64,000 nucleotides of DNA, taken from positions 19,251 to 83,250 of the forward strand of contig PLBO01000103.1 in assembly GCA_003134555.1 (NCBI GenBank), read 5' to 3'. The notes beneath the pieces are model-generated. The model was not told the DNA's origin. It made no database searches and was given only the letters and a program-made list of their open reading frames with translations. Both the position numbers and the translations under genes were made by a program. This DNA is from Actinomycetota bacterium. GTDB lineage: Bacteria > Actinomycetota > Acidimicrobiia > IMCC26256 > PALSA-610. Shown piece by piece: positions 44,712 through 64,000 of the stretch (positions within the stretch are counted from its first letter, which is position 1; each line of letters begins with the position of its first letter).

Positions 44712-44735
44712 GGCCACCTCCGCGACTCGCGCGAT

Positions 44736-44752: not shown

Positions 44753-44753
44753 T

Positions 44754-46414: not shown

Positions 46415-46427
46415 AGGGTCTGGCGCT

Positions 46428-47204: not shown

Positions 47205-47208
47205 AGCC

Positions 47209-48420: not shown

Positions 48421-48851
48421 ACAACCGGGAACTGGTCGAGAAGCTCTGGGCCGACCTCTACCGCCGCGATTTCGACGCGGTCGGTGCCGCGTTCGCCGAC
48501 GACGGCGAGTACACCGACGTGCCGACCCCGGCCGACGACGTCGCGCGCGGTCCCGCCCAGATCGCGGCGCGCCTCCGCTTGGGTCTGGAGCCGCTCTCGG
48601 CGATCTCGCACGACGTGCGCGCGATCATCGCCGAAGGTGACACCGTCGTCACCGAGCACGTCGAACACTGGGAATGGCCCACGGGCGAGCGCGCGTCGCT
48701 TCCCTTCGTGTCGATGCACGAGGCGCGTGACGGCGAGTTGGTGCGCTGGTGGGACTACTGGGACCTCGCCACGCTGATGAACTCGGCGCCCGCGTGGTGG
48801 GTCGAGCACATCATGAACGAGTCGGCGCGCATCGGGCTGCGAGGCGCCTGA
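48417..48851 (+). CDS. Limonene-1,2-epoxide hydrolase-like / SnoaL NTF2-fold protein
   Basis: GTG 48417 overlaps the P450 stop (GTGA). 144 aa with ...GELVRWWDYWDL..., which is LEH-like. Confidence 0.7.
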   Translation: MNNRELVEKLWADLYRRDFDAVGAAFADDGEYTDVPTPADDVARGPAQIAARLRLGLEPLSAISHDVRAIIAEGDTVVTEHVEHWEWPTGERASLPFVSMHEARDGELVRWWDYWDLATLMNSAPAWWVEHIMNESARIGLRGA

Positions 48852-48856
48852 TCTTC

Positions 48857-51844: not shown

Positions 51845-52927
51845 TCAGTACACGATGATGCTGCGCGCGACCTCGCCCGCCTGCATCGCCCGGAACGCGT
51901 CGTTCAACTCCTCGAGCGCGATTCGGCGGGTTACGAGTGCGTCGAGATCGAGCCGCCCGGCCTGCTGGAGCCGGACGATCTCGGGGAAGTCGCGGGCCGG
52001 ATCGGTCGACCCGTAGACGCATCCGCGCAGCGTCTTGGCCCCGACCATGAGCTGCATCGCGCCGAACTTCACCATGTCGCTGAAACTTCCGGCGCCGACG
52101 ACCGTGCAGGTGCCCGCCCGACGCGTCATCTCGAACGCGGCTTCGATCGTGTCGGAGCGACCCACGACCTCGAACACGTGGTCGGCGCCTCTTCCCGCGG
52201 TGAGCTCGCGCACCGCCGCGACCGGGTCGGTGCCCGACGCGTCGACGACGTCGGTCGCACCGCATCTTCGGGCCAGCACGAGCTTGGACGCGACACGATC
52301 GACCGCGATGATCGGCGCCGCGCCGGCCAGGCGCGCGCCCTGAACCGCGGCCAGGCCGACCCCGCCGCAGCCGATCACCGCGACGCTCGCGCCCGGCTCC
52401 ACGTGCGCGCTGTTGCACACCGCGCCGACACCCGTCACGACCCCGCACCCGACGAGAGCCGCGAGCTCGAACGGGAACTCCGGGTCGATCTTCACGCAGG
52501 CCCGCTCGGGAACGATCGTCTCCTCGCCGAAGGTTGCGGTTCCAAACGCGGCGAGAAACGCCGTGCCGTCGGAGGCCGTCGCGTAGGGAGACGCGAACGC
52601 GTGATCGAGCCCGTGCTCGCACAGCTCGGGATGGTCCCGGAGGCAAAAGAAGCATGCGCGGCACGGCGCGACCCACGCGAGCACGACGTGATCGCCCGGT
52701 TCGACGGTCGTGACATCGGCGCCCGTGCCGATCACCACGCCCGCGCCTTCGTGTCCCAGCACCGCCGGCAATGGGTGCGGAATCGTGCCGTCTTGGATCG
52801 ACAGGTCGGAGTGGCACACACCACTCGCGGCAACGCGCACGTGCACGTCGCGCGGCCCGAGGGCACGGAGGCGGAGATCTTCGACCGTGAACGCGTCGCC
52901 GGTGCCTCGCAGCACCGCGGCTTTCAC
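51845..52927 (-). CDS. Zn-dependent alcohol dehydrogenase (class III-like MDR)
   Basis: GTG 52927 overlaps the P450 stop (GTGA). Motifs GVCHSD, GHEGAG and GCGGVG. Confidence 0.88.
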   Translation of the reverse strand: MKAAVLRGTGDAFTVEDLRLRALGPRDVHVRVAASGVCHSDLSIQDGTIPHPLPAVLGHEGAGVVIGTGADVTTVEPGDHVVLAWVAPCRACFFCLRDHPELCEHGLDHAFASPYATASDGTAFLAAFGTATFGEETIVPERACVKIDPEFPFELAALVGCGVVTGVGAVCNSAHVEPGASVAVIGCGGVGLAAVQGARLAGAAPIIAVDRVASKLVLARRCGATDVVDASGTDPVAAVRELTAGRGADHVFEVVGRSDTIEAAFEMTRRAGTCTVVGAGSFSDMVKFGAMQLMVGAKTLRGCVYGSTDPARDFPEIVRLQQAGRLDLDALVTRRIALEELNDAFRAMQAGEVARSIIVY

Positions 52928-54132
52928 GACTCGACCGCGAAGCGGAGGTGCAGATTCTCGGATTGGCGGATGCCCGGGGAGAACGAGATCGTCGTCTCGG
53001 GCGCGAGCTCGTAGTCGGGCACGCGGCGGTGGAACTCCTCCAGCGCGACGGTCAACTCGAGCCGGGCGAGATGCGAGCCGAGGCACCGGTGGGGACCGCC
53101 GCCGAATGCGAGATGACGGTTCGACTCGCGATCGAAACGTACGTCGGACGCATCTTCGAACTCGGCGCGGTCGCAATTCGCGGCGCCGATGAGCAACGTT
53201 GCGCCGTCGCCCGCCCGGAGTTGCACGCCGCCGATCTCGAAATCCTGCGCGACGATGCGGGGCACCATCATCACCGGTGTCTGGTGCCGCAACAGCTCCT
53301 CGACCGCGCCCGCGACGAGCGAACCGTCGTCGACAAGTGCGCGGCGTCGTTCGGGGTGCTGCGCGAGGAACACGATCATGCAGTCGAGCGTGGCGGTAAC
53401 CGTGTCGAGGCCGCCGAGCAGCAACAGGTGCGTCGTTCCCAACAGTTCGGCGTGGGTCAGCGGCCGGCCTTCGACCTCACCGTGCACGAGCGTGCTCAGC
53501 AACCGGTCGTCGGGATGGGCGCGCTTCTCTTCGATCTTGCCCTGGAAGTACGCCTCGATCGCCTTACCGGCGGCTTCGCGTTTCTGCTCCATCTCCTCGA
53601 TCGTGTCGCCCTGCGGCCGGATCGTGTCGTCGCGCCACGCGAGGAACTGCGGCAGGTCGTCCTGGGGCAGGCCCATCAGCGCGAGGAAGATCGTCGACGG
53701 CAGCGGCGTGGCGAAGTCCTCGTGGAAGTCGCACGCGCCGTTGGCCGCGAACTCGTCGATGATCTCGTTGACGAGAAGGCGCGCCTCCGGTTCGAGGTCG
53801 GCCATCCGCTTGGGCGAGAACTGCGGGTCGAGCAGGCGCCGGTACTTCGCGTGATCGGGCGGATCGACCGACAGCGGGATGAGCGGCACGTCGTTTCCGA
53901 TCTTGACGACGTCCTTCGACGAGAACACCTCGGGATGCTTGAGTGCCCAGAGCACGTCGTCGTAGCGCGACAGCGTCACGCTGTAGCCGCCGAACATGCC
54001 CGGCGCGCGTGCGACCGGACAACGATCGTGCAGGTCGTGGTACACCGGCTGCGGGTCGTCGGCACAGCGCTGCGAGAAGACCGCGGACATCGGGTCTTCG
54101 TCGCCGGTGGGAACGGCTTCGTCGGCGTACAT
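52924..54132 (-). CDS. Cytochrome P450
   Basis: ATG 54132 is preceded by AAGGAG. Heme loop FGGGPHRCLGSHLARLE and ExxR (EELLRH). Confidence 0.9.
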   Translation of the reverse strand: MYADEAVPTGDEDPMSAVFSQRCADDPQPVYHDLHDRCPVARAPGMFGGYSVTLSRYDDVLWALKHPEVFSSKDVVKIGNDVPLIPLSVDPPDHAKYRRLLDPQFSPKRMADLEPEARLLVNEIIDEFAANGACDFHEDFATPLPSTIFLALMGLPQDDLPQFLAWRDDTIRPQGDTIEEMEQKREAAGKAIEAYFQGKIEEKRAHPDDRLLSTLVHGEVEGRPLTHAELLGTTHLLLLGGLDTVTATLDCMIVFLAQHPERRRALVDDGSLVAGAVEELLRHQTPVMMVPRIVAQDFEIGGVQLRAGDGATLLIGAANCDRAEFEDASDVRFDRESNRHLAFGGGPHRCLGSHLARLELTVALEEFHRRVPDYELAPETTISFSPGIRQSENLHLRFAVES

Positions 54133-54166
54133 CAATGCTCCTTGCGGGGGGTGTGGAGCTCGAGGC

Positions 54167-55354
54167 TCACGGTTGTTGCAGCGCTTCGGGCACCGCGTGG
54201 CGGAACAGCTTGGAGGCGTTCTCCCACGTGACCTTGCGGACGACATCCGCCGGCACGTCGCGCAATGCGGCCGTCGCGTTGGGTTGCGTGTCGGGCCACG
54301 TGGAATCGGCGTGCGGGTAGTCGCTCTCGAGACAGATGCGGTCGACGCCGATGTGGTCTCGGAGCGCGAACGTGGATCCGATGTCGATCGTGCAGAACCA
54401 GAAATTGCGTCGCAGCGCTTCGGTCGGCGAGATGTCGGTGGCCGCCCAACCGTGCGAGCCGACGGCCGAGTGATCGAGCACGTAGTCGATCCGATCGATC
54501 AGCATCGGCACCCAGCTGATGCCGCCTTCCGAGAACGCGATCTTGATCTTCGGAAAGCGGGTGGGAACCTGGGCCCAGAGCCAGTCGGCCGCGGTGACGA
54601 GCGCGTTGACCGGGAACAAGCTGGTGTAGAGCTCGAGCGGCGCACCCGGCGAACGGGCCGCGGTCCACGACGACGAGCCATTGTGCAGGCAGACGACCGT
54701 CTCCGTCTCTTCGCACGCGCGCAGGAACGGGTCCCAGTGCGTATCGATCATCGGCGGGAGCTGCAGGTCGACCGGGTTCTCCGGGAAGCTCACTGCCTTG
54801 AACCCGCGCTCGGCGTTGCGCCGCACGTCGGCGGCCGCGACCTGCGGATCGACCACCCAGGCGAGCTGCAACGGGATCACGCGATCGGGATGCGGCCCGG
54901 CCCACTCGTCTATGTGCCAGGCGTTCCACGCGCGCAACGCCGCCAGTCCGAGCTCCGGATCCTTGCTCTTCGCGAAGATCGTGCCCGCGAACCCGGCGAT
55001 GAGCGAAGGAAAGCAGAGCGACGCCAACACGCCGTCGAGATTCATGTCGGCGACGCGGGCTTCGATGTCGTAACAGCCGCGGCGCATCTCGTCGAAGCGC
55101 GCCGGTTCCATGCTCCACTCGGCCTTGGGCCGGCCCGCGACCGCGTTGAGACCGACCTGCGGGTAGAAGTTGTCCTCGTAGATCCACGTCTCCCGGCCGT
55201 CGTCGAGGGTCACGACGCGGGGCGCTCGCTCCTGCAACGCCGACGGAAGCCGCCCCTCGAAGCAGTGCGCGGGCTCGATCAGGTGGTCGTCGACCGAGAT
55301 GATCGTGTAGTTGCGGACGCGCGGCTCGGGATCCGGAAGGAAGGTCGCGGTCAT
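54167..55354 (-). CDS. Amidohydrolase-2 family protein
   Basis: ATG 55354 overlaps the TetR stop (ATGA). ...ISVDDHLIEP...CLESDYPHADS. Confidence 0.82.
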   Translation of the reverse strand: MTATFLPDPEPRVRNYTIISVDDHLIEPAHCFEGRLPSALQERAPRVVTLDDGRETWIYEDNFYPQVGLNAVAGRPKAEWSMEPARFDEMRRGCYDIEARVADMNLDGVLASLCFPSLIAGFAGTIFAKSKDPELGLAALRAWNAWHIDEWAGPHPDRVIPLQLAWVVDPQVAAADVRRNAERGFKAVSFPENPVDLQLPPMIDTHWDPFLRACEETETVVCLHNGSSSWTAARSPGAPLELYTSLFPVNALVTAADWLWAQVPTRFPKIKIAFSEGGISWVPMLIDRIDYVLDHSAVGSHGWAATDISPTEALRRNFWFCTIDIGSTFALRDHIGVDRICLESDYPHADSTWPDTQPNATAALRDVPADVVRKVTWENASKLFRHAVPEALQQP

Positions 55355-55911
55355 CGGCGGCCGACGCCTTCGATGCAGAAGCGCTGCAGGTAGCGCGCAA
55401 GCTCGTGCGTGTCGGCGACGCGGCCGACCACGACGTCGTCGATACCGTCGAGCAGCACCGCGAACATCGTGCGCGCGTCGCGTTTCGGATCGTCGGAGTC
55501 GATGTAGCGCGCGAGCAGGTCGACGAGCGGGGCCAGCGCGTCGCGCAATTCGTCTTCGTGGAACTCCGTGAGGCGCCGACGCTCTCGCACGAGAACACCC
55601 GCATAGCCGGTCGCTTCCGCGGGCGTGAGCATGTCGAAGAGCTCGAACACGTAGGCGCGCAGGGCGTCGGTTCCGGTGCGCGTGCCGATGCGCTCGGCGA
55701 GGATGTCGGCGCCGATCCGGCTGTCCTCCGCGAGGAGCGCGATGAGCAGGTCGTCCTTGCTGCGGAAGCACGAATAGAACGCCTTGAGCGAAACGCCTGC
55801 CCGCATGGCGAGCTGCGCAACCGTGAAGGCTGCGCTGCCCGTCTCGTTCGCCAAGACCCGGGCCGACGCCACGAGCCGCTGCGGACGGTCGGGCTCTTCC
55901 GAGAACGCCAT
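55351..55911 (-). CDS. TetR-family transcriptional regulator
   Basis: N-terminal HTH FTVAQLAMRAGVSLKAFYSCFRSKDDLL. 186 aa. Confidence 0.88.
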   Translation of the reverse strand: MAFSEEPDRPQRLVASARVLANETGSAAFTVAQLAMRAGVSLKAFYSCFRSKDDLLIALLAEDSRIGADILAERIGTRTGTDALRAYVFELFDMLTPAEATGYAGVLVRERRRLTEFHEDELRDALAPLVDLLARYIDSDDPKRDARTMFAVLLDGIDDVVVGRVADTHELARYLQRFCIEGVGRR

Positions 55912-55935: not shown

Positions 55936-56003
55936 TCCACCAAACAGTTTGGCGCGAAAACCGCTCCACGCGCCGGTTTTCCACCAAACAGTTTGGCGCG
56001 AAA
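55936..56003. promoter_or_regulatory. Two identical 24-bp direct repeats, each with a perfect 13-bp palindrome CCAAACAGTTTGG (site B); candidate TetR operators
   Basis: TCCACCAAACAGTTTGGCGCGAAA occurs at 55936-55959 and 55980-56003 (period 44 bp). The repeats lie 25-92 nt upstream of the TetR ATG (55911) and directly after the TAA stop of the thiolase-like gene (56011-56013). Confidence 0.75.
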
Positions 56004-56010: not shown

Positions 56011-57156
56011 TTAGGCGGGCTGGGAGCGGAGGATGCCCATCGCGAAGTACTGGGCGCCGCCGCCGTAGGCCTGGGCGAGCGCGGTGCGCGCGCCGTCGAC
56101 CTGATGCTCACCGGCGAGCCCCCGCACCTGGAGCGCGGCCTCGGCGAACCGCAGCATCCCCGACGCGCCGATCGGGTTCGACGACAACACGCCGCCCGAC
56201 GCGTTCACCGGGAACGAGCCGGTCAGCTCGGTGTCGCCGCTCTCGACCATCTTCCAGCCCTCGCCGGGGCCGGCGATGTCGTGACCCTCGAGCCACATCG
56301 GCTCGTACCAGCTGAAGGGCACGTACAGCTCGGCGACGTCGATCTCCTGACGCGGAACACTGATCCCGGCCTGGCGGTACACGTCGTGCGCGCACTCCAC
56401 GCCCGCGAGCGGGCGAACGGGATCGCGCCCGGGGAAGGCACCGAGCTCGCTGCGGACGGCCGTCGCCGCGACCCACGCGGCCGGCTTCGACGCGCGCTTG
56501 CCGTTCGCCTCGTTGGTGAGCACGACCGCGCACGCGCCGTCGGACGACGGGCACGACTCGAGGAACCGCAGCGGGTCCCACAACATCGCCGATTCCTTCA
56601 CCTTCTCGATGCTGATGTCGGCCAGTTTCAGGTGCGCGTAGGGATTCTTGAGCGCGTTGAGGCGGTCTTTCACCGCGACCTGCCAGCCGATGTACTCGGG
56701 CGCGCCGGTCTTCTCGATGTACGCGCGGATCCACGGCGCGAACGCGCCGCCGGCACCGATGCCGCGACTGCGCCCGCCCGCCAGACCCCACTGCGCGTTG
56801 CCCTCGCTCTGCTTCTCCCACGAGATCGCGAGCACCCGTTCGTGGATGCGCGACTCGACGAGGTGCGCACCGACGATGAACGTCGAACCGCCGACGCTGC
56901 CCGCGGTGTGCACCCGCAGCATCGGCTTGCCCGCGCCGCCCAGCGCGTCGGCGAGGAACAGCTCCGGCTGCACGATCCCTTCGAACGCGTCGGGAGCCTT
57001 ACCGATGACGATCGCGTCGATGTCGGCCCAGGTGCACTCCGCGTCGTCGAGCGCCCGCGTCGCCGCCTCGCGCAACAACCCGGGGATCGAGACGTCGTCG
57101 CGCCGCTTCTTGTGGTGCGTCTGCCCGACGCCGATGACCGCGCACTGTTCCGCCAT
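56011..57156 (-). CDS. Thiolase-fold (SCP-x/Ltp-like) protein lacking the canonical Cys nucleophile
   Basis: ATG 57156 with a GGAGGG Shine-Dalgarno. MAEQCAVIGVGQT... The expected NxxC(A/S)(S/G)G position reads VHTAGSVGGST. C-terminal GGVLSSNPIGASG has Asn where His is expected. TAA stop. Confidence 0.8.
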   Translation of the reverse strand: MAEQCAVIGVGQTHHKKRRDDVSIPGLLREAATRALDDAECTWADIDAIVIGKAPDAFEGIVQPELFLADALGGAGKPMLRVHTAGSVGGSTFIVGAHLVESRIHERVLAISWEKQSEGNAQWGLAGGRSRGIGAGGAFAPWIRAYIEKTGAPEYIGWQVAVKDRLNALKNPYAHLKLADISIEKVKESAMLWDPLRFLESCPSSDGACAVVLTNEANGKRASKPAAWVAATAVRSELGAFPGRDPVRPLAGVECAHDVYRQAGISVPRQEIDVAELYVPFSWYEPMWLEGHDIAGPGEGWKMVESGDTELTGSFPVNASGGVLSSNPIGASGMLRFAEAALQVRGLAGEHQVDGARTALAQAYGGGAQYFAMGILRSQPA

Positions 57157-57158
57157 GA

Positions 57159-58217
57159 TCAGTCGCCCTCCATCAGGCACACCAGGTTGTGTTGCAGGAC
57201 CTGGCCGCCGGTCGCGTGCGCGAGTCCGCGGCTCGCGCTCCCCTCGACGATGCGCCGGGCGACCTCGACGATCCGCACGAGTCCGGTCGCCATGACCGGA
57301 TTGGCGGCGAGAGGTCCGCCGGACGGGTTCACGTTCGCGTCGGCGTCGACTCCCAACGCGTCGCGCAAGATCAGCTCCTGAGGGCTGAACGTCGACGACA
57401 GCTCGATGACGTCGAGTGGTCCGCCGTCGTAGCCCGCCTTGCGTGCGGCAAGTGCGGTCGAAGTCGACGTCGTCAGGTCGCGCATCCCCGGCTGGTGCAC
57501 CTCGATGCGGTGGTCGAGACCACGGATCCACGCGGGCCGCTTGCACAGCGCCCGCGCGCGATCGCCGCGCGCCAGCACGACCGCGACGGCGCCGTCGGAG
57601 ATCGGGGGAAGATCGTGTTTGCGCAATGGCGCACGCACGTACGGCTCGGCGAGCAGCTCGTCGACCGAGAAGTCGCCCGCGACCTGCGCGTTCGGATTGT
57701 CCTTGGCGTTGCGCCGGCTGCGCACGACCACGTTCGCGAAGTCGCGCTCGGTCGCCTTGCCCGCATCGAGCAGCGCGCGCGCCTGGATGCCGGCGAGCGA
57801 CGCGGGATCGACGCCGAGTGGCGCGAGGTAATACGGATCGAGTTGTTGCGCCCACATCTCTTCGGGCTTCGACGGCGACGACTTACCCGAGCCGAACACG
57901 AGCGCGGTGTCGATGTCGCCGTGCTGCAGCCGCACCCACGCTTCGTACATTGCCCACGCGCCGTCCATCTCGACGTGCGACTCCGAGATCGGAGGCCACG
58001 CGCCCGCAGCCTCGAGGTTCGACACGAAGGCGAAAGGACCGCCCGTGAGGTAGTCGCAGCTGCCCGCGCACGTGAACCCGACCTCGCGCCGGTCGAGGCC
58101 GGCGCGCTGCAGTGCTTCGGTGACGATCGGAACCAGCAGCTGCACTTCGCTCTCGCGCGCACGTCGCGTTGACGGCGTCTGCGCGTAGCCGACGACGGCG
58201 ATGTCTGTAGCGGCCAT
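57159..58217 (-). CDS. Thiolase-fold protein, second paralog, also without the canonical Cys
   Basis: ATG 58217 overlaps the upstream stop (ATGA). MAATDIAVVGYAQT... The nucleophile position reads VEMDGAWAM. C-terminal NPSGGPLAANPVMATG. Confidence 0.8.
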   Translation of the reverse strand: MAATDIAVVGYAQTPSTRRARESEVQLLVPIVTEALQRAGLDRREVGFTCAGSCDYLTGGPFAFVSNLEAAGAWPPISESHVEMDGAWAMYEAWVRLQHGDIDTALVFGSGKSSPSKPEEMWAQQLDPYYLAPLGVDPASLAGIQARALLDAGKATERDFANVVVRSRRNAKDNPNAQVAGDFSVDELLAEPYVRAPLRKHDLPPISDGAVAVVLARGDRARALCKRPAWIRGLDHRIEVHQPGMRDLTTSTSTALAARKAGYDGGPLDVIELSSTFSPQELILRDALGVDADANVNPSGGPLAANPVMATGLVRIVEVARRIVEGSASRGLAHATGGQVLQHNLVCLMEGD

Positions 58218-58762
58218 CAGAAGATGTGCTCCTCGTACTCGGCGCGGTCCTTGTCGGGCTCTCCGCTCGGCTCGAACGCGTCGATGACCGACGACACGCT
58301 CCCCCACCCGCGGTTCGAAACGCCCTCGGCGCTCCGCTCGCTCTTCGGCTTCCACACCGCGCGCAACCGCATCCCGGATCGGAGCTTGTCGTGCGGCACC
58401 CCGACGACTTCCTGGCCGCCCAGGTTGCTGTCGGAGCCGTCGAGCAGCACCGACGCGTACACGAACGGCTCGGTCTCCGTTTGGCCGTAGTACGCGACCG
58501 GCGTGATGATCGTGAACCCCGTGAGCGTGCCGTGGTCGCCGACCTCGACCTCGTCGGCGTCGGTCGTGGGCACGACGCAGATCGGACAGTAGCCCTTGCC
58601 GGGCACGTACACCCGGCCGCAGGAAGGGCACTTGTGACCGACGATGCGGCCGTCGATCAACGCGTCGACGTAGCGCTCGAGGATCGGGGTGAGCTCCTCG
58701 GAGTACGTCAGCGAGACGAGGTGCTCCATGACGAGGTTCTCTTTGGGAGTGCTCGTGCTCAT
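58217..58762 (-). CDS. DUF35 OB-fold protein with intact Zn ribbon
   Basis: ATG 58762 overlaps the upstream stop (ATGA). GHKCPSCGRVYVPGKGYCPICV (CxxC...CxxC) followed by an OB fold. Confidence 0.8.
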   Translation of the reverse strand: MSTSTPKENLVMEHLVSLTYSEELTPILERYVDALIDGRIVGHKCPSCGRVYVPGKGYCPICVVPTTDADEVEVGDHGTLTGFTIITPVAYYGQTETEPFVYASVLLDGSDSNLGGQEVVGVPHDKLRSGMRLRAVWKPKSERSAEGVSNRGWGSVSSVIDAFEPSGEPDKDRAEYEEHIF

Positions 58763-59196
58763 GATGCGGGCTCCCAGCACGCGAGGTCGTCGATCATGTT
58801 GTGCGGCTCGGCCCGCCAGCGCGGCTGCACGCGCATGCCCGTCGACATCCGGTCGATGCTGCCGGCGTCGACCGCATGCACCATCGCCGTGGCGGCGCCG
58901 TCGGGTGTGACGAGCGCGAACGCGAAGGGACGGTCGAGGGGGTGCTTCGGGGTCGGTTCGTCGACCCATGTCCACGACGTGACGGTCCCCTGCGGGCCGA
59001 CCTCGACGAGCTCGTCGAGTGCGTCGCCGGTATTCGGGTCGTACTCCAAGGGTGGAACGAGCACCTTGCCGGCGCGCGTCCGGATGCCGAGGATGCGGTG
59101 CTCGCGCAAACCGGAGAGGAACGCGCCGACCACCGGCCCGAGCGTGCGCGAATAGGGGAACTCGAGAGTGCTCTCGACGATGCGCGGTTGACTCAT
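58759..59196 (-). CDS. DUF35 OB-fold protein, Zn-ribbon cysteines lost
   Basis: 145 aa. The ribbon-equivalent region reads RILGIRTRAGKVLVPPLEYDPNTGD (no Cys). It is followed by the OB-fold segment GTVTSWTWV. Confidence 0.72.
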   Translation of the reverse strand: MSQPRIVESTLEFPYSRTLGPVVGAFLSGLREHRILGIRTRAGKVLVPPLEYDPNTGDALDELVEVGPQGTVTSWTWVDEPTPKHPLDRPFAFALVTPDGAATAMVHAVDAGSIDRMSTGMRVQPRWRAEPHNMIDDLACWEPAS

Positions 59197-59205
59197 GCCC
59201 CGAAG

Positions 59206-60678
59206 CTAACCATCCGCCGCGAGCGCCGCATGTTCGGCGAGCAACCGCTTGTCGACCTTGCCCACCGACGTCAACGGGAGCGCGTCGACCACGACGAGAC
59301 GATCGGGCGCCTTGTAGTCGGCCAGCGCGGCCTGGCAGAAGGTCCGGAGATCGTCCAACGCGGGCGACCGTTCGTCCGCAGGTGTGCCGGCGGGCACGAC
59401 GAAGGCGACGCCGATCTCTCCGAGCACGGGATCGGCTACGCCCAACACCGCGACCTGCGCGACCGCATCGTGCTCCGACAGCACGCGCTCGACCTCCGCC
59501 GGGTACACGTTGTATCCACCGCGGATGTACATCTCGCTGCGCCGGCCGACGAGGGTCAGATAGCCCCGCTCGTCGAAGCAGCCGAGGTCGCCGGTCGTCA
59601 GCCAACCGTCGGCTCCCAACACCTCGGCCGTGCGATCCGGGTCCTGCCAGTAGCCCCGCATCACGGCTTCCGATCGACAGCGGACGCGTCCGACGGCGCC
59701 GGCCGGGCAGGTCCGGCCGTCGTCGTCGACGACGTCGAGCTCGACGTTCACCCGCGCCCGGCCGACCGTCTGCGAGATCACCTCCGGGGAGTCGCCCGGC
59801 ACCGTTCCGGTCGTGATCGCGGCCTCCGTGCTCGTGTAACCGATCACGACCGGACACCCGAGCCTTTGCTCCATCTCGCGCACGAGCTCGGGAGGCACAG
59901 TCGCGGCGCCAGTCCCCGCGATCCGGAGAGATGTGAGGTCGCGGCGCGCGAAGTCGGGATGGTCGAGCACGAGCCGCCACTGTGTCGGCACCCCCTGACC
60001 GACGGTGACGCGTTCGCGCACCATCAGACGGAGCGCGTCGACCGCGCTCCACGGTGTCGGCGTGATCACGGTCGTGATCACGTTGTCGATCTCCTCCCAC
60101 GGACGCGACATGAACGCGACGTGCGCGAAGGGAAGCGGCGCGAGCCGCACGTCGTATCGCGCGCCCATCGCGCCCGCACCGACCGCGACGGCTCGAAGGT
60201 TGCGATGGTCGAACACCGCGCCCTTCGGCATGCCCGTCGTGCCACTCGTCCAGACGATCGCGACGGCGTCGTCGGGTTCGACGCGCGGGAGATCGACTGG
60301 CGGCTCGTACGTATACGCCGCGCGCACTGCGTCGAGATCGGTGTCTCGTATGACGACGCGTGGACGCGTGCGTTCGAGGATGCTTGCGATATCCGGCGGG
60401 CCCAGCCGCGTGTTGATACCGGTCGTGATCGCTCGTAGGCGCATCGCCGCCTGGTAGCAGACGGCGTAGTCGATCGACGACGGCACGAGCAGCGCGATCA
60501 CGTCACCCGGCCGTACGCCCCGATCGGCGAAGAACGAGGCGACGCCGTCGGCGGCGCGGTCCCACTGCGCGAACGTGAGCCGGCGATCGACTTCGACGAA
60601 CGCGGCACGATCCGGATGCTCGGCCGAGACCTTCCTCAGCAGCTCCACAGTCGTCCGGGGCGGGCTCAACGGTGCCAA
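59206..60678 (-). CDS. Acyl-CoA synthetase (AMP-forming ligase)
   Basis: Motifs TSGTTGMPKG, TGDLGCFDERGYLTLVGR and KVDKRLL. The start is uncertain: TTG 60678, TTG 60669 or GTG 60648. The track ORF extends to 60978. Confidence 0.82.
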   Translation of the reverse strand: MAPLSPPRTTVELLRKVSAEHPDRAAFVEVDRRLTFAQWDRAADGVASFFADRGVRPGDVIALLVPSSIDYAVCYQAAMRLRAITTGINTRLGPPDIASILERTRPRVVIRDTDLDAVRAAYTYEPPVDLPRVEPDDAVAIVWTSGTTGMPKGAVFDHRNLRAVAVGAGAMGARYDVRLAPLPFAHVAFMSRPWEEIDNVITTVITPTPWSAVDALRLMVRERVTVGQGVPTQWRLVLDHPDFARRDLTSLRIAGTGAATVPPELVREMEQRLGCPVVIGYTSTEAAITTGTVPGDSPEVISQTVGRARVNVELDVVDDDGRTCPAGAVGRVRCRSEAVMRGYWQDPDRTAEVLGADGWLTTGDLGCFDERGYLTLVGRRSEMYIRGGYNVYPAEVERVLSEHDAVAQVAVLGVADPVLGEIGVAFVVPAGTPADERSPALDDLRTFCQAALADYKAPDRLVVVDALPLTSVGKVDKRLLAEHAALAADG

Positions 60679-61365: not shown

Positions 61366-61653
61366 TCAGTCGTCCGGTGCGGACAGGTCGATCAACCCGG
61401 ACGCCGCGGCGAGCGCGACGGCGCGTCGGGCCGCTTTGTCGTACGCCGCGGCGAAGTAGTGCTCTGCGATCGTCTCCCGCCCGGGAAGCGGGGGCGGTCC
61501 GAGCGACCGGATCATCGCCGCGGGGTCGTCGGGAGAGCGGACGAGCGGCATCGGCTCGTCGCCGGTGCCGACACCTTCCCAGAAGTCGCGACGCGGTGCG
61601 GGCTTGCGGCGCGGGCTCGACCGGGTGGAGGCGCGGCGGCGCGGCGGGCTCAT
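61366..61653 (-). CDS. Hypothetical small protein translationally coupled to the SNF2 helicase
   Basis: ATG 61653 overlaps the helicase TGA (ATGA). 95 aa. Arg/Pro-rich N-terminus, then ...IRSLGPPPLPGRETIAEHYFAAAYDKAARRAVALAAASGL. High GC3. Confidence 0.55.
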   Translation of the reverse strand: MSPPRRRASTRSSPRRKPAPRRDFWEGVGTGDEPMPLVRSPDDPAAMIRSLGPPPLPGRETIAEHYFAAAYDKAARRAVALAAASGLIDLSAPDD

Positions 61654-64000
61654 GCTCTCACCCCGTCGTCCGACTCGAGCAGATCTTCGGTGAGCAGCGC
61701 CTCGGGCCGCATACCGAGCGCGAGGCGGAGCTGGTCCTGGTCGAGATCGGCGAGCGAGCTCGACTTCGGCAACACGAGATCCGCGATCCGGCGCTTGCCC
61801 GCCACGACTTCCTCGACCCGTTCGTCGACGGTCCCGGGGCAGATCAGGCGATGAGAGATGACGGTGCGGGTCTGACCGATGCGCCACGCGCGATCACGGG
61901 CCTGGTCTTCCACGGCGGGGTTCCACCAACGGTCGTAGAGAACTACATGACTGGCAGCAGTGAGGTTGAGGCCGGTGCCGCCGGCCTTCAACGACAACAC
62001 GAGCGCGCGCGGCCCGTCGCCCCCTTGGAAGTCGGAGATGATCTGGTCGCGTGCCGTACGCGTCAACCCGCCGTGGTAGCAGGCCACCGGGGTTCCGGTG
62101 CGTTTCGTGAGATGGTCGGCCAAGCGAATGCCCCATTGCGCGAAGTGTGTGAACACGAGAACGCTTTCGCCCGCGGCGAACACCGCGTCGACGATCTCCT
62201 CGAGGCGCGAGAGCTTGCCCGACCGACCCGCGAGCGGAAGGTCGTCGCCTTTGTACGCGGCGGGATGGTTGCAGATCTGCTTGAGCGCGGTGATCGCGGC
62301 GAGGATCTGGCCGTTGCGGGCCTTGCTGCCTTCGGGAAGCGCGGCGCCGGTGACCAAGGTGTCGAGCAACGCTTGATACAGACCGATCTGCTCGGCTGTC
62401 ATCGCGCAACGGTCGAGCTCGTCGATCTGGTCGGGGAGCTCCGCCGCGATCATCGGCTCGGCCTTCGTGCGCCGGAACACGAGGATGCCGTTGAGCGCGC
62501 GCATCGCCTCTTCGGCCTCGACGCGCGCGGCACGACCGTCGCTCGAGAGTCGCGCGATGAACTGCGGGCGCGGACCGACGAGCCCGGGGTTCGCGAAGTC
62601 GAGGATCGCCCACAGGTCGCCGAGACCGTTCTCGATCGGCGTACCGGTGAGCGCGATCCGCGTTCTCGCCGGAATACGCCGCAACTGCTGCGACGTGTCG
62701 TTGGCCGGATTCTTGATCGCCTGCGCTTCGTCGAGGACCACCTTCGACCACGACACCGCCGCGATCGCGTCGATGTCGCGCACTGCGGTTCCGTAGGTGG
62801 TGACGACGACGTCGGCGTTGGCGACCTCCGCCGCGATCTCTTCGGCCACGGCGCGATTCGCGCCATGGTGCACGACGACGCGCAGACCGGGCGTGAAGCG
62901 CGCGGCCTCGGCCGTCCAGTTGCCGACGACCGCCGGCGGCGCGATCACCAGTGCCGGACCGGAGCCCTTGCCGGCGAGCAGATCGGCGAGCATCGTGGGC
63001 GTCTTCCCGAGGCCCATGTCGAGCGCGAGGCAGCCGCCGAGCCCGGCCTTGCCGAGGAAGCCGAGCCACGCGAGCGCCTCGGCCTGGTAGCTCCGCAACT
63101 CACCGACGAAGCCGACCGGCGTTCCCGCGGGCACCGACGAAACGTCGGACGCGGCGGCGAGAAGCTCGGCCGCCCAACCGCCACCGACTACTGAGACACC
63201 GCCCGCGAGCGACGAGGCTTCGATACCGAGCGCGAGACGGAGTGCCTGCGCGCCCGAGAGTTGCTTCGTGTCCGCACGTTCGGCCAGTGCGTCCGCGGCG
63301 GCCTGCAGATCGGCGCGGTCGACCGCCACCCAGCGTCCGCCCGAGCGGATGAGCGGGCGCGCCTCTCTGGCCAAACGGGCGATGTCGGCGGCTGTCAACT
63401 CGACGTCGTCGAACACGGCCGACCAGCGAACGTCCGCAAGCTGGTTCGCGCCGACCACCGACTCCGACGCGTCGACGAACACGCGCAGCGACGCCGTAGG
63501 CCGGCGCCGCGACAATGCCGGGACGCGCACGTCGAAGCCGGCCGCCTCGAGCTGCGGGCCGGTGGTCGCCATGAGGTCCCACGCCTCGTCCTGGCTCAGG
63601 ATGACCTCGCCGCGCCGCGTCCCGCCCGGCCTCAACAACGCCGGAAGCATGCGCTCCAGTCGCGTGAGCTCGTCCTCGAGGTGCGGCCGGACCGCACCCG
63701 CGTTCACGATCGCCTGCTCGATCGGAAGCTGCTCACCGCGCGCGCCGGTGGCGAACACCGCGAGATGCCAGGCCTTCGCGTCGTCGGGCGGATCGAGCCG
63801 GACGATCAATCGTCCGCGCTCCCCTGTCACCGAGCGTCCCCAACGCTCGATGCGCGTCGCGACATCGCCCGCGAGACGGGTCGGCGCGTCGAACGCGGTG
63901 CCGTCGAGCCGCCCGAGGAACGCCTCCGCCACATCGGTGGCGGTGCGAACGTTGGGAGGTGGGGCCGGCGTCTCGAGCTGGCGCGCACCGTCGCGACAGA
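61650..64000 (-). CDS. SNF2-family helicase (HelZ-like); N-terminus beyond the right edge
   Basis: Motif I LALDMGLGKT, motif II LDEAQAIKN and C-terminal helicase lobe ...LSLKAGGTGLNLT...QARDRAWRIGQ. The frame stays open from 63932 to 64000, so the gene is 5'-truncated by the window. Confidence 0.88.
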   Translation of the reverse strand, partial: CRDGARQLETPAPPPNVRTATDVAEAFLGRLDGTAFDAPTRLAGDVATRIERWGRSVTGERGRLIVRLDPPDDAKAWHLAVFATGARGEQLPIEQAIVNAGAVRPHLEDELTRLERMLPALLRPGGTRRGEVILSQDEAWDLMATTGPQLEAAGFDVRVPALSRRRPTASLRVFVDASESVVGANQLADVRWSAVFDDVELTAADIARLAREARPLIRSGGRWVAVDRADLQAAADALAERADTKQLSGAQALRLALGIEASSLAGGVSVVGGGWAAELLAAASDVSSVPAGTPVGFVGELRSYQAEALAWLGFLGKAGLGGCLALDMGLGKTPTMLADLLAGKGSGPALVIAPPAVVGNWTAEAARFTPGLRVVVHHGANRAVAEEIAAEVANADVVVTTYGTAVRDIDAIAAVSWSKVVLDEAQAIKNPANDTSQQLRRIPARTRIALTGTPIENGLGDLWAILDFANPGLVGPRPQFIARLSSDGRAARVEAEEAMRALNGILVFRRTKAEPMIAAELPDQIDELDRCAMTAEQIGLYQALLDTLVTGAALPEGSKARNGQILAAITALKQICNHPAAYKGDDLPLAGRSGKLSRLEEIVDAVFAAGESVLVFTHFAQWGIRLADHLTKRTGTPVACYHGGLTRTARDQIISDFQGGDGPRALVLSLKAGGTGLNLTAASHVVLYDRWWNPAVEDQARDRAWRIGQTRTVISHRLICPGTVDERVEEVVAGKRRIADLVLPKSSSLADLDQDQLRLALGMRPEALLTEDLLESDDGVRA

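What the first reader, a model, noticed from the sequence alone, without database searches (positions are those of the whole stretch)
56011..60678. Five-gene ATGA-coupled operon: ligase, two DUF35, and two thiolase-fold proteins that both appear to lack the Cys nucleophile
Gene order on the minus strand is acyl-CoA ligase, DUF35 without Zn-ribbon cysteines, DUF35 with an intact CxxC...CxxC ribbon, then two thiolase-like genes. The DUF35/DUF35(Zn) and DUF35(Zn)/thiolase-like junctions overlap as ATGA. The ligase/DUF35 and thiolase/thiolase junctions are gaps of 9 and 2 nt. By eye, the position of the acyl-accepting Cys (NxxCxSG) reads AGSVGG in one paralog and MDGAWA in the other. The C-terminal GHP His position reads SNP in one and ANP in the other. 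Known DUF35/thiolase-fold partnerships include the steroid side-chain retro-aldolase Ltp2-ChsH2(DUF35), benzoylsuccinyl-CoA thiolase BbsAB, and the archaeal thiolase/HMG-CoA synthase/DUF35 complex. I do not recognise a 2+2 set with both thiolase-fold subunits degenerate and one DUF35 ribbon-less as a characterised enzyme. It suggests a hetero-oligomeric C-C lyase/aldolase acting on the CoA ester made by the ligase.
Basis: partly seen in the sequence, partly recalled or inferred. Interest (0 to 1): 0.58.

Follow-up and report, generated by a model that had tools for sequence, protein, structure and literature searches.

The report
Split Ltp3/Ltp4-type aldolase operon
This operon encodes an acyl-CoA ligase plus four proteins that match the actinobacterial Ltp3/Ltp4 "aldol-lyase" of sterol side-chain breakdown and its DUF35 partner, so it is a new member of a gene set known from genetics but never studied biochemically.

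Summary
Five co-directional genes lie on the minus strand: an acyl-CoA ligase, a DUF35 protein without a zinc ribbon, a DUF35 protein with CxxC...CxxC, and two thiolase-fold paralogs. Both paralogs lack the Cys/His/Cys thiolase triad. One detail is wrong: the DUF35(Zn)/thiolase junction is TGATG (1-nt overlap), not ATGA.

The set is not unknown. THL1 and THL2 score above the curated cut-offs of NCBIfam PRK07937 and PRK08313. The Ltp4/Ltp3 pair in a Tsukamurella sterol cluster fits the same two models. That pair sits next to Rv3520c-family and EchA19 genes and a fused double-DUF35 protein at the Rv3521 position.

The order DUF35–DUF35–THL1–THL2 is kept in 78/78 and 72/73 testable loci from several phyla. 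The two DUF35 genes are fused in 38 of 80 loci. The ligase is not a conserved member.

THL2 keeps an invariant Tyr at the position of the catalytic base of the Ltp2 and Sal steroid aldolases. THL1 does not.

Best reading: a heteromeric retro-aldol lyase for a hindered β-hydroxyacyl-CoA, substrate unknown. Reviews already call Ltp3–Ltp4 a "heteromeric aldol-lyase". I found no biochemical or structural study. Verdict: new member of a known kind, moderate interest.

The parts
59206..60678 (-). Acyl-CoA ligase (adenylate-forming). Start codon uncertain: TTG 60678, TTG 60669 or GTG 60648.
   Evidence: Pfam AMP-binding 232 bits plus AMP-binding_C 71 bits. The best NCBIfam hits are all below cut-off: PRK06187 361/476, FadD3 family 333/657, CasG 269/750. 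The N-terminus was compared with L001. An orthologous ligase is found only in L001 and L009 (75-87% identity).
58759..59196 (-). DUFa: a DUF35 OB-fold protein without a zinc ribbon (145 aa).
   Evidence: Pfam OB_ChsH2_C at 40 bits and no zf-ChsH2 hit. 63 of 84 homologues have no CxxC. It lies upstream of DUFb-THL1 in 78/78 loci. It is fused to DUFb in 38/80 loci.
58217..58762 (-). DUFb: a DUF35 protein with a CxxC...CxxC rubredoxin-like ribbon plus OB fold (181 aa). It overlaps DUFa by ATGA.
   Evidence: Pfam zf-ChsH2 25.9 bits plus OB_ChsH2_C 37.4 bits. Cys45, Cys48, Cys59 and Cys62 are present here. Only 32 of 85 homologues keep two CxxC motifs; the others carry Asp, Ser or Thr at these positions.
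57159..58220 (-). THL1: Ltp4-type thiolase-fold subunit (353 aa). It has no Cys/His/Cys triad and no aldolase Tyr. The loop SHVEMDGAWA is invariant. The start overlaps the DUFb stop as TGATG.
   Evidence: NCBIfam PRK07937 'lipid-transfer protein' 490 bits against a cut-off of 419. AF2 pLDDT 82, pTM 0.86. Foldseek top hits are the DUF35-partnered thiolase-fold proteins 6ET9, 7YVY, 7PYT, 4YZO, 6OK1 and 9MYR. Invariant residues are listed.
56011..57156 (-). THL2: Ltp3-type thiolase-fold subunit (381 aa) and the probable catalytic aldolase subunit. Gly86 is at the Cys-nucleophile position. Tyr278 (YVPF) is at the Ltp2 Tyr294 position. Asn327 is at the GHP-His position.
   Evidence: NCBIfam PRK08313 589 bits against a cut-off of 514. 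Pfam Thiolase_C_1 106.8 bits. Alignments to 6HSJ and to TcLtp2 6OK1. R81-G89, Y278-W283 and S320-N327 are at least 97% conserved in 82 homologues.
55940..55996 (.). Two copies of the perfect palindrome CCAAACTGTTTGG (55940-55952 and 55984-55996). They lie in the 99-nt gap between the THL2 stop and the TetR start and are a likely TetR operator.
   Evidence: Five matches at up to 2 mismatches against 0.24 expected by chance. Not found upstream of the ligase. Not found with up to 1 mismatch in any fetched locus.
51845..55911 (-). Downstream co-directional neighbour operon: TetR (55351-55911), Amidohydro_2 (54167-55354), P450 (52924-54135), Zn-ADH (51845-52927). It may be functionally linked to the cassette.
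   Evidence: Pfam. TetR, Amidohydro_2 and P450 follow the cassette in the same order in close relatives L001 and L009. This arrangement is not conserved in more distant loci.

Best explanation
DUFa, DUFb, THL1 and THL2 most likely assemble into one heteromeric retro-aldol (C-C) lyase of the Ltp3/Ltp4 type.

Proposed assembly (inferred):
- The usual thiolase-fold homodimer is replaced by a THL1-THL2 heterodimer.
- Each thiolase-fold subunit is clamped by its own DUF35 domain. This would be a heterotypic version of the alpha-beta-beta-alpha Ltp2-ChsH2(DUF35) and Sal-Shy(DUF35) complexes.

Proposed chemistry (inferred):
- No acyl-enzyme can form, because neither subunit has a nucleophilic Cys.
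- THL2 (Ltp3-like) supplies an invariant Tyr278 as the general base. It would deprotonate the beta-hydroxyl of a beta-hydroxyacyl-CoA and break the C-alpha/C-beta bond. The products are a short acyl-CoA and a ketone or aldehyde.
- THL1 (Ltp4-like) lacks this Tyr. It would act as the obligatory partner that shapes the interface and substrate cleft. A second catalytic role for its invariant His82/Glu84/Asp86 loop is not excluded.
- The adjacent ligase would make, or re-activate, a CoA thioester of the pathway.

What is shown and what is not:
- Shown: gene structure, family membership, the residues at catalytic positions, and conservation of the four-gene cassette.
- Inferred: complex formation, stoichiometry, catalysis and substrate.
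- The substrate in this Acidimicrobiales-like genome is unknown. It is a branched or otherwise hindered acyl-CoA, possibly but not demonstrably a sterol or isoprenoid side chain.
For: 1. Family. THL1 scores 490 bits on PRK07937 (cut-off 419) and THL2 589 bits on PRK08313 (cut-off 514). In Tsukamurella L086 the same two models fit the thiolase pair at 593 and 734 bits. That pair lies beside an Rv3520c-family F420 oxidoreductase (TIGR03559, 423 against 335), an EchA19 equivalog (428 against 400), a 309-aa double-DUF35 protein, a P450 and a 'steroid 3-ketoacyl-CoA thiolase'. The layout recalls the M. tuberculosis ltp4/ltp3 locus; the intergenic Rv3520c/Rv3521 KstR site is documented in PMC1995591.

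2. Function of the family. ltp3 and ltp4 are needed for removal of the C24 branch of sterols. They are described as aldol lyases and as a heteromeric aldol-lyase (PMC6593523, PMC10832528, PMC6678751, all citing Wilbrink 2012).

3. Co-inheritance. DUFa-DUFb-THL1 is present in order in 78/78 loci, and THL2 follows in 72/73. The loci come from Acidimicrobiia, Actinomycetes, Myxococcota, Spirochaetota and Chloroflexota. DUFa and DUFb are fused into one ORF in 38/80 loci.

4. Catalytic residues. THL2 Tyr278 aligns with TcLtp2 Tyr294 of YDHF. THL2 and Ltp2 both have Gly at the Cys-nucleophile position. The catalytic role of Tyr294 is stated in PMC12329534. Y278-V-P-F-S-W is at least 97% conserved.

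5. Fold. The THL1 model has a thiolase fold. Its nearest solved structures include the DUF35-partnered complexes 6ET9, 7PYT, 6OK1, 9MYR and 5M3K.

6. Context. Ligase (37/80 loci), acyl-CoA dehydrogenase (31), SDR (37), enoyl-CoA hydratase (14) and P450 (12) genes recur near the cassette. In L088 the cassette lies directly beside ChsH2-like, MaoC and Ltp2-like genes; the Ltp2-like gene scores 639 bits to 6OK1.
Against: - No physical or enzymatic data exist for any member of this family in the literature I could search. The heteromer and the aldolase chemistry rest on genetics in Rhodococcus and on analogy with Ltp2 and Sal.
- THL2 lacks the second catalytic residue of both characterised aldolases. 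Ltp2 Tyr344 corresponds to Asn327. Sal Cys304 and Ltp2 His296 correspond to Pro280. The proton donor and oxyanion hole are therefore unidentified.
- The operon encodes no hydratase. No steroid ring-degradation genes occur anywhere in the 64-kb window.
- In fused lineages the DUFa-DUFb linker is short. This may not fit two DUF35 domains on opposite ends of a dimer.
- The window proteins are only 50% (THL1) and 60% (THL2) identical to the sterol-cluster pair. Substrate identity cannot be transferred.
Confidence: 0.68

Rival explanations
1. The complex is bifunctional. THL2 is the aldolase. THL1 carries a second, different active site built from its invariant His82-x-Glu84-x-Asp86 loop, Asn307 and His335. 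This site could be a hydratase, decarboxylase or isomerase acting on the same CoA ester, which would explain why the operon has no separate hydratase.
For: THL1 is strictly conserved at three of the four classical thiolase catalytic loops. S81, H82, V83, E84, D86, N298, S300, G301, G302, H335 and Q343 are at least 97% conserved or invariant across phyla, although overall identity is only about 55-60%. The window operon has no MaoC or crotonase gene.
Against: The N-alpha-3 helix and the loop before it form the dimer interface in thiolase-fold proteins (general knowledge). Conservation there can reflect heterodimer packing alone. Many loci do carry a separate enoyl-CoA hydratase (14/80; L087). 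No precedent was found. The active-site loops of the THL1 model have low confidence (residues 57-64 and 306-308).
Confidence: 0.13
2. The cassette is the strict functional orthologue of mycobacterial Ltp3/Ltp4. It cleaves the C24-C25 bond of carboxylated, hydrated C24-branched sterol (sitosterol or campesterol) side-chain CoA esters. On this view the organism degrades phytosterols.
For: The proteins belong to the same NCBIfam subfamilies as the sterol-cluster pair. L088 places a cassette with split DUF35 genes inside a ChsH2/ChsH1/Ltp2-type side-chain cluster. A P450, an alcohol dehydrogenase and a ligase next to the window cassette could perform terminal oxidation and activation of a side chain.
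Against: No KshA, KstD, Hsa, Mce4 or ChsH/Ltp2 genes and no acyl-CoA carboxylase were detected in the 64-kb window. Identity to the sterol-cluster pair is only 50-60%. One MAG carries two cassettes (L034 and L040, both from isolate N_bin.6), so paralogy occurs. Contexts across the 80 loci are heterogeneous.
Confidence: 0.2
3. It is an acyl-transfer or condensing enzyme of the PhlACB or thiolase type. It would carry out thiolysis, Claisen condensation or C-acylation through a non-canonical nucleophile.
For: PhlACB also combines two thiolase-fold paralogs with a DUF35 protein, and PhlC appears among the PDB hits. THL2 has a conserved Cys202 in CPSSDGA.
Against: There is no Cys at the nucleophile position in either subunit. 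The GHP His is replaced by Asn in both. From my own knowledge, PhlC and BbsB keep their catalytic Cys. The BbsB equivalog scores only 99.7 bits against a cut-off of 750. Cys202 sits in a CP(T/S)SDGA motif that SCP2-thiolase also shows; to my knowledge it is not a catalytic residue there.
Confidence: 0.05
4. The proteins are non-catalytic. They would act as a lipid carrier or scaffold, or (for the DUF35 proteins) as nucleic-acid-binding OB-fold proteins, as some annotations suggest.
For: Source names include 'lipid-transfer protein' and 'OB-fold nucleic acid binding domain-containing protein'. One paper speculates that the Rv3521 homologue binds DNA (PMC9782250).
Against: No SCP2 lipid-binding domain is present. 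The Zn-ribbon and OB domains match the ChsH2-type Pfam models specifically. Catalytic-loop positions are extremely conserved. Gene knock-outs block a specific C-C cleavage step (as cited in PMC10832528 and PMC6678751).
Confidence: 0.03

Closest known systems
Ltp3-Ltp4 (Rv3523-Rv3522; Rhodococcus rhodochrous ltp3/ltp4) with the adjacent Rv3521-type double-DUF35 protein
   Same: The proteins fit the same NCBIfam subfamilies, PRK08313 and PRK07937. The gene order is the same: DUF35, DUF35, Ltp4-like, Ltp3-like. The motifs are the same in the Tsukamurella sterol-cluster pair: RVHTAGSVGG, YVPFSW and SSNPIGASG in the Ltp3-like protein, and ESHVEMD(G/A)AWA in the Ltp4-like protein.
   Different: Here the two DUF35 domains are separate genes; 42 of 80 loci are split in this way. 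A ligase is directly coupled upstream. The genomic context is not a sterol cluster. Identity to the sterol-cluster pair is only 50-60%.
Ltp2-ChsH2(DUF35) steroid side-chain retro-aldolase (PDB 6OK1)
   Same: Both have a thiolase fold without a Cys nucleophile, with Gly at that position. Both keep a Tyr at the first position of the (Y/H)Dxx motif; THL2 Tyr278 corresponds to Ltp2 Tyr294. Both have a DUF35 partner.
   Different: Ltp2 is a homodimer with one kind of DUF35 domain. Its second catalytic Tyr344 and its oxyanion His296 are Asn327 and Pro280 in THL2. Sequence similarity is weak: E = 2e-13 for THL2 and 2e-6 for THL1.
Sal-Shy(DUF35) bile-acid aldolase (PDB 9MYR)
   Same: It is a DUF35-clamped thiolase-fold aldolase. 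It has an amide residue (Gln352) where THL2 has Asn327. The Tyr base is conserved (PMC12329534).
   Different: Sal needs Cys304 of its YDCY motif, and THL2 has Pro at that position. Sal is a homodimer, and its DUF35 domain is fused to a MaoC hydratase.
PhlACB multicomponent acyltransferase (PDB 5M3K)
   Same: It combines two different thiolase-fold paralogs with a DUF35 protein in one complex. From my own knowledge, PhlA has no catalytic Cys.
   Different: From my own knowledge, PhlC keeps a catalytic Cys and performs acyl transfer. It has only one DUF35 type. Similarity to the window proteins is only distant.
Benzoylsuccinyl-CoA thiolase BbsAB (PDB 7PXP) and the archaeal thiolase/HMG-CoA synthase/DUF35 complex (PDB 6ESQ/6ET9)
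   Same: These are DUF35-partnered thiolase-fold enzymes. They are among the nearest structural neighbours of the THL1 model, with TM 0.81-0.86.
   Different: From my own knowledge, both are true thiolases with catalytic Cys residues. The BbsB equivalog model is far below its cut-off, 99.7 against 750 bits.

Membership tests
Canonical thiolase (EC 2.3.1.9 / 2.3.1.16, including SCP2-type) | Nucleophilic Cys at the N-terminus of helix N-alpha-3 (the CxS motif) | tested here: not met
   THL2 has Gly86, aligned to the Cys of NNNCSTGS in 6HSJ. THL1 has a 2-residue deletion at this position (hhalign). Both states are conserved across the family.
Canonical thiolase (EC 2.3.1.9 / 2.3.1.16, including SCP2-type) | GHP histidine and an acid/base Cys (HDCF in SCP2-type, CxG in other thiolases) | tested here: not met
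   At the GHP position THL2 reads SNP and THL1 reads ANP. At HDCF THL2 reads YVPF and THL1 reads SSTF. Neither has a Cys in the CxG loop.
Thiolase-fold superfamily | Two-domain alpha-beta-alpha-beta-alpha thiolase fold | tested here: met
   THL2: Pfam Thiolase_C_1 at 106.8 bits against a cut-off of 28. THL1: AF2 pTM 0.86, with Foldseek TM 0.86 and E = 9e-24 to 6ET9.
Ltp4 / Ltp3 subfamilies (NCBIfam PRK07937 / PRK08313) | Whole-protein score above the curated cut-off | tested here: met
   THL1 scores 490.1 against 419. THL2 scores 588.9 against 514. The Tsukamurella sterol-cluster pair scores 593 and 734 on the same models.
Ltp4 / Ltp3 subfamilies (NCBIfam PRK07937 / PRK08313) | Adjacent pair preceded by an Rv3521-type double-DUF35 protein | tested here: met
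   Window order is DUFa, DUFb, THL1, THL2. The same order is found in 78/78 and 72/73 loci. The DUF35 pair is fused in 38/80 loci and in Tsukamurella.
Ltp4 / Ltp3 subfamilies (NCBIfam PRK07937 / PRK08313) | Location in a KstR-regulated sterol catabolic cluster and a role in C24-branched sterol degradation | tested here: not met
   No sterol-cluster genes were detected in the window. The local regulator is a TetR with its own palindromic operator. The biological role cannot be tested with these tools.
Ltp4 / Ltp3 subfamilies (NCBIfam PRK07937 / PRK08313) | Direct sequence comparison with M. tuberculosis Rv3521, Rv3522 and Rv3523 | not tested
   I could not obtain the M. tuberculosis sequences. 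A Tsukamurella locus with Rv3520c-family and EchA19 markers served as proxy.
Ltp2/Sal-type steroid aldolases | Catalytic-base Tyr in the YD(H/C)(F/Y) motif | tested here: met
   THL2 Tyr278 aligns with TcLtp2 Tyr294 and is at least 97% conserved. THL1 does not meet this feature (SSTF).
Ltp2/Sal-type steroid aldolases | Second catalytic residue (Ltp2 Tyr344 or Sal Cys304) and the oxyanion His of YDHF | tested here: not met
   The corresponding THL2 residues are Asn327 and Pro280 (residue roles from PMC12329534).
Ltp2/Sal-type steroid aldolases | Physical alpha-beta-beta-alpha complex with DUF35 domains | not testable with these tools
   Only gene adjacency, the DUFa-DUFb fusion and rare, possibly artefactual DUFb-THL1 and THL1-THL2 fused gene calls bear on this.
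DUF35 (ChsH2 C-terminal type) | OB_ChsH2_C OB fold | tested here: met
   DUFa scores 40.0 bits and DUFb 37.4 bits against a cut-off of 27.1.
DUF35 (ChsH2 C-terminal type) | Cys4 (or Cys3His) rubredoxin-like zinc ribbon | tested here: inconclusive
   DUFb meets it: zf-ChsH2 at 25.9 bits against 23.2, with four Cys residues. DUFa does not: it has no Cys in the ribbon region. Zinc binding itself cannot be tested here.
Benzoylsuccinyl-CoA thiolase BbsB | NCBIfam equivalog NF053628 above its cut-off | tested here: not met
   THL2 scores 99.7 bits and THL1 44 bits against a cut-off of 750.
Steroid acyl-CoA ligases (FadD3, CasG) | Equivalog score above the cut-off | tested here: not met
   FadD3 family: 333 against 657. 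CasG: 269 against 750. The protein is a generic adenylate-forming ligase. No FadD19 model appeared among the 25 hits shown.

The most novel reading that the evidence does not exclude
The thiolase-fold homodimer has evolved into an obligate asymmetric heterodimer. One subunit is an Ltp3-like, Tyr-based aldolase. The other is an Ltp4-like subunit whose invariant His-x-Glu-x-Asp loop forms a second, new active site or a composite site shared across the interface. Each subunit is held by its own DUF35 domain. In Acidimicrobiia, Myxococcota and Spirochaetota this machine would act on abundant non-steroid branched lipids, not on sterols. The module would then be a widespread, uncharacterised C-C-cleaving step of environmental lipid turnover.
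Probability: 0.15. Interest if true: 0.6.

Novelty: new member of a known kind. Interest (0 to 1): 0.36.

Why it matters
- **Rv3521 role.** Comparative evidence assigns a role to Rv3521-type proteins. The papers I could search still list them as conserved hypothetical proteins or speculate that they bind DNA. Here they appear as the dedicated double-DUF35 partner of Ltp4/Ltp3.
- **Scope of the module.** Four components are inherited together (three where the DUF35 genes are fused). The module occurs far beyond known steroid degraders.
- **Testable residues.** The analysis names candidates for mutagenesis: THL2 Tyr278, and THL1 His82, Glu84 and Asp86. The enzyme is relevant to phytosterol bioconversion and to M. 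tuberculosis cholesterol metabolism, and no structure or assay was found for it.
- **For this window.** The finding is a well-conserved catabolic operon, not a new kind of system.

Tried and rejected
- **Fetching M. tuberculosis Ltp3/Ltp4/Rv3521 for direct comparison.** None of these routes gave Mycobacterium sequences: representative search plus cluster look-up gave only 'acetyl-CoA acetyltransferase' names. The genome scan returned the 80 closest loci, none from Mycobacterium. A profile built from Actinomycetes-class orthologues returned only MAGs labelled Mycobacteriales. The supplements of PMC6429209 hold no sequences. A tblastn search of PLSDB finally gave Nocardia and Tsukamurella records, and the Tsukamurella locus served as proxy.
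- **Wilbrink 2012.** The primary paper is not held in the library. Its conclusions are cited through later papers.
- **Fused gene calls.** Metagenomic DUFb-THL1 calls (P0181, P0256) and THL1-THL2 calls (P0208, P0190) could be Rosetta-stone evidence. I gave them little weight. They are singletons, and the overlapping or closely spaced stop/start junctions make frameshift artefacts likely.
- **TetR operator.** I searched for the TetR palindrome upstream of the ligase and in related loci. None was found. There is no evidence that this TetR controls the cassette.
- **Promoter and terminator scan.** It was uninformative: 0 promoters, and terminators at chance level.
- **Structure work not done.** I did not run a third homologue search or an AF2 model for THL2, because the fold was already clear from sequence.
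- **Five-gene unit.** The 'five-gene conserved unit' reading was rejected, because the ligase is not orthologous across loci.

Full report
**1. What is in the sequence**

The window is high-GC (about 69%). Its closest relatives are MAGs labelled Acidimicrobiales, Acidimicrobiia or Actinomycetes (L009 is 93% identical in THL1).

Five genes lie head-to-tail on the minus strand between 56011 and 60678:
- an acyl-CoA ligase at 59206-60678;
- DUFa at 58759-59196 (145 aa);
- DUFb at 58217-58762 (181 aa);
- THL1 at 57159-58220 (353 aa);
- THL2 at 56011-57156 (381 aa).

The ligase start is ambiguous (TTG 60678, TTG 60669 or GTG 60648).

The junctions read directly from the DNA are:
- a 9-nt gap between the ligase and DUFa;
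- an ATGA overlap between DUFa and DUFb;
- a TGATG overlap (1 nt) between DUFb and THL1;
- a 2-nt gap between THL1 and THL2.

So only one junction, not two, is ATGA. The genes remain tightly packed and plausibly co-translated.

Pfam gives the following:
- ligase: AMP-binding plus AMP-binding_C;
- DUFa: OB_ChsH2_C only;
- DUFb: zf-ChsH2 plus OB_ChsH2_C;
- THL2: Thiolase_C_1;
- THL1: only sub-threshold thiolase hits.

An AF2 model of THL1, built from 42 sequences, has pLDDT 82 and pTM 0.86. It is a thiolase fold. Its best Foldseek matches include proteins solved in complex with DUF35 partners:
- the archaeal thiolase of the thiolase/HMGCS complex (6ET9/6ESQ, TM 0.86);
- BbsB (7PYT/7PXP);
- Ltp2-ChsH2(DUF35) (6OK1);
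- Sal-Shy(DUF35) (9MYR);
- PhlC (5M3K).

Pyrococcus thiolase 7YVY, Sulfolobus ST0096 (4YZO) and SCP2-thiolases also rank high.

**2. Active-site positions**

HMMER aligns THL2 to zebrafish SCP2-thiolase 6HSJ:
- The nucleophile loop NNNCSTGS corresponds to HTAGSVGG, so the Cys is Gly86.
- ELHDCF corresponds to ELYVPF.
- GHPLGATG corresponds to S-NPIGASG, so the His is Asn327.

A profile-profile alignment of the THL2 and THL1 families has probability 100 and 27% identity:
- THL1 has a 2-residue deletion exactly at the nucleophile position (SHV--EMDGAWA).
- THL1 reads SSTF at the HDCF position and ANP at the GHP position.
- THL1 has a 17-residue deletion of the loop before NPSGG.

These replacements are not decay. 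In 82-86 homologues, the following THL2 segments are at least 97% conserved: R81-V-H-T-A-G-S-V-G89, E276, Y278-V-P-F-S-W283, and S320-G-G-V with N327. In THL1, S81-H-V-E-M-D86, N298, S300-G-G and H335 are equally conserved.

**3. What family it is**

NCBIfam places THL1 in PRK07937 'lipid-transfer protein' (490 bits, cut-off 419). It places THL2 in PRK08313 (589 bits, cut-off 514).

I could not retrieve the M. tuberculosis sequences, so I used an annotated Mycobacteriales record found by tblastn in PLSDB. Tsukamurella tyrosinosolvens locus L086 carries these genes:
- an LLM F420 oxidoreductase that fits TIGR03559 'F420_Rv3520c' (423 bits, cut-off 335);
- an EchA19 equivalog (428 bits, cut-off 400);
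- an AMP-binding ligase;
- a 309-aa 'OB-fold' protein that is a fused DUFa-DUFb;
- two thiolase-domain proteins that fit PRK07937 (593 bits) and PRK08313 (734 bits);
- a P450 and a 'steroid 3-ketoacyl-CoA thiolase'.

This matches my recollection of the M. tuberculosis layout Rv3516 (echA19) ... Rv3520c-Rv3521-ltp4-ltp3. The KstR operator between Rv3520c and Rv3521 is documented in PMC1995591.

The Tsukamurella proteins carry the same motifs as the window proteins: RVHTAGSVGG, YVPFSWF and SSNPIGASG in the Ltp3-like protein, and ESHVEMDAAWA in the Ltp4-like protein. Identities to the window proteins are 49.6% (THL1), 59.7% (THL2), 53.7% (DUFa) and 38.9% (DUFb).

The window cassette is therefore a member of the Ltp4/Ltp3 + Rv3521 family, with the double-DUF35 protein split into two genes.

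**4. What is known about that family**

Later papers cite Wilbrink et al. 2012, which the library does not hold. They state the following:
- ltp3 and ltp4 encode aldol lyases needed for degradation of C24-branched sterol side chains (PMC6593523, PMC8708139, PMC10832528).
- After C26 oxidation, CoA activation, 24(25)-desaturation, C28 carboxylation and hydration, the C24-C25 bond is cleaved 'by a heteromeric aldol-lyase (Ltp3-Ltp4)'. The resulting carboxylate must then be thioesterified again (PMC6678751).
- Ltp3 and Ltp4 are 'putative SCP-2 aldolases' upregulated on cholesterol (PMC8204306).
- Rv3521 is listed as a conserved hypothetical protein (PMC6429209). Its S. hirsuta homologue was speculated to bind DNA (PMC9782250).

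I found no biochemical or structural study of Ltp3, Ltp4 or Rv3521 in the searchable library. Subscription journals are largely missing from it.

**5. Comparative genomics**

A genome scan with a THL1 alignment returned 80 loci. They come from Acidimicrobiia, Streptomycetaceae, Embleya, Frankia, Blastococcus, Myxococcota, Spirochaetaceae and one Chloroflexota MAG.

- DUFa-DUFb-THL1 occur in this order in 78 of 78 loci with enough upstream sequence.
- THL2 follows directly in 72 of 73 loci. The exception, L009, is a fragmented HSP.
- DUFa and DUFb are one ORF in 38 loci and two ORFs in 42. This argues strongly that both act in the same assembly.
- Median identity to the window is 65% for THL2, 59% for THL1, 56% for DUFa and 40% for DUFb.
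- DUFa usually lacks the ribbon: 63 of 84 sequences have no CxxC.
- The DUFb Cys4 ribbon is intact in only 32 of 85 sequences. Asp, Ser or Thr replace the Cys residues elsewhere. The 'ribbon-less plus ribbon' pattern is therefore typical but not universal.

The ligase is not part of the conserved unit. An orthologous ligase (75-87% identity) is present only in L001 and L009. Elsewhere ligases of 24-36% identity lie upstream or downstream; 29 of 80 loci have one within 2.5 kb.

Other recurrent neighbours are acyl-CoA dehydrogenases (31/80), SDRs (37), enoyl-CoA hydratases (14), NMO (12) and P450s (12).

In L088 the split cassette lies directly beside ChsH2-like, MaoC and Ltp2-like genes; the Ltp2-like gene scores 639 bits to 6OK1. 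The same locus also has a P450, three ligases, SDRs and a pair of ACADs, which makes it a steroid side-chain cluster. Frankia L087 has two crotonases next to the cassette.

**6. Mechanism**

The alignment of an Ltp2 orthologue with 6OK1 gave me the TcLtp2 sequence with its published numbering (Y294DHF, Y344).
- THL2 Tyr278 (YVPF) aligns with the catalytic-base Tyr294.
- Both proteins have Gly at the former Cys-nucleophile position.
- Ltp2 Tyr344 occupies the GHP-His position. Sal has Gln352 there and THL2 has Asn327.
- The oxyanion His296 of Ltp2 and the essential Cys304 of Sal correspond to Pro280 in THL2 (residue roles from PMC12329534).

THL2 thus looks like an aldolase with the conserved base, but with a different and unidentified acid and oxyanion arrangement. 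THL1 lacks the Tyr altogether.

I therefore propose a THL1-THL2 heterodimer in place of the Ltp2 or Sal homodimer. THL2 would be the catalytic subunit, and one DUF35 domain would sit on each subunit. The strict conservation of THL1 His82, Glu84 and Asp86 fits either heterodimer-interface packing or a contribution to catalysis. I cannot separate these two possibilities.

The frequent ligases fit the need to activate the acid before cleavage and/or to re-activate the carboxylate product.

**7. Context in this window**

After THL2 comes a 99-nt gap holding two copies of the perfect palindrome CCAAACTGTTTGG (55940-55952 and 55984-55996; 0.24 matches expected by chance). Next comes TetR-Amidohydro_2-P450-ADH on the same strand. 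TetR, Amidohydro_2 and P450 follow the cassette in the same order in L001 and L009.

The rest of the window mixes housekeeping genes with scattered lipid and xenobiotic genes. Housekeeping genes include gyrase/topoisomerase subunits, PBPs and a serA-like gene. The other genes include paired ACADs, luciferase-like oxidoreductases, a second ligase/Amidohydro_2 pair, and P450, SnoaL/LEH-like and DyP genes.

No steroid nucleus-degradation genes, carboxylase or MaoC hydratase were detected. The substrate here is therefore open. Transferring the sterol C24-branch function would be an over-reach.

**8. Verdict**

- The interpretation as a hetero-oligomeric aldolase is the best-supported reading. The set is the already named Ltp3/Ltp4 (+Rv3521) module, not an unrecognised enzyme type.
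- It is a new member of a known kind.
- Its residual interest lies in the lack of biochemistry for the family, the clear assignment of Rv3521-type proteins as its DUF35 partners, the catalytic asymmetry between the two thiolase-fold subunits, and the broad phyletic spread.

Noticed in passing
window 55940-55996: Two perfect copies of the palindrome CCAAACTGTTTGG lie 44 bp apart, each within a longer direct repeat (TTTCGCGCCAAACTGTTTGGTGGA). They sit between the THL2 stop and the TetR start and are a probable TetR operator pair. The palindrome is absent upstream of the ligase and absent (at up to 1 mismatch) from all fetched loci.
   Followed up: partly
window 51845-55911: TetR, Amidohydro_2, P450 and Zn-ADH form a second tightly packed operon, with ATGA and GTGA stop/start overlaps at two junctions. 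TetR, Amidohydro_2 and P450 are syntenic with the cassette in the close relatives L001 and L009. The role of the PF04909 amidohydrolase (possibly a decarboxylase or hydratase) is unexplained.
   Followed up: partly
window 43533-49744: A second catabolic cluster: Amidohydro_2 (43533-44717), an AMP-binding ligase (44754-46223), a P450 (47209-48420), a SnoaL / limonene-epoxide-hydrolase-like protein (48417-48851) and a DyP-type peroxidase (48857-49744). The ligase + Amidohydro_2 + P450 combination recurs in this genome.
   Followed up: no
window 9465-11813: Two adjacent acyl-CoA dehydrogenase genes (373 and 403 aa) lie near two luciferase-like oxidoreductase genes (6058-7371 and 8609-9370). The ACAD pair may form a FadE-type heteromer.
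   Followed up: no
window 50736-51815 and 61650-63932: A D12-class N6-adenine DNA methyltransferase with no obvious restriction partner, and an SNF2-family helicase with a DUF3670 domain, flank the catabolic region.
   Followed up: no
P0181, P0256, P0208, P0190 (metagenomic proteins): These gene calls fuse DUFb to THL1, or the THL1 C-terminus to the THL2 N-terminus. They could be real Rosetta-stone fusions or frameshift artefacts at the overlapping or closely spaced stop/start junctions.
   Followed up: partly
L083 (Mycobacteriales MAG, GCA_035554015.1), 155-11391: The cassette lies beside a P450, a PAPS reductase, a CysN/APS-kinase-like protein, a 3-beta-HSD and an SRPBCC cyclase-like protein. 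This combination hints at metabolism of a sulfated steroid or lipid.
   Followed up: no
DUFb homologues in loci L002-L086: The four ribbon cysteines of DUFb are often replaced. Cys59 is Asp in 23 of 85 sequences and Cys62 is Asp in 27 of 85. The zinc site is therefore dispensable or remodelled in much of the family.
   Followed up: partly
L034 and L040 (same MAG, isolate N_bin.6): One Acidimicrobiia genome carries two copies of the four-gene cassette in different contexts. Paralogous cassettes, and probably different substrates, therefore exist.
   Followed up: no
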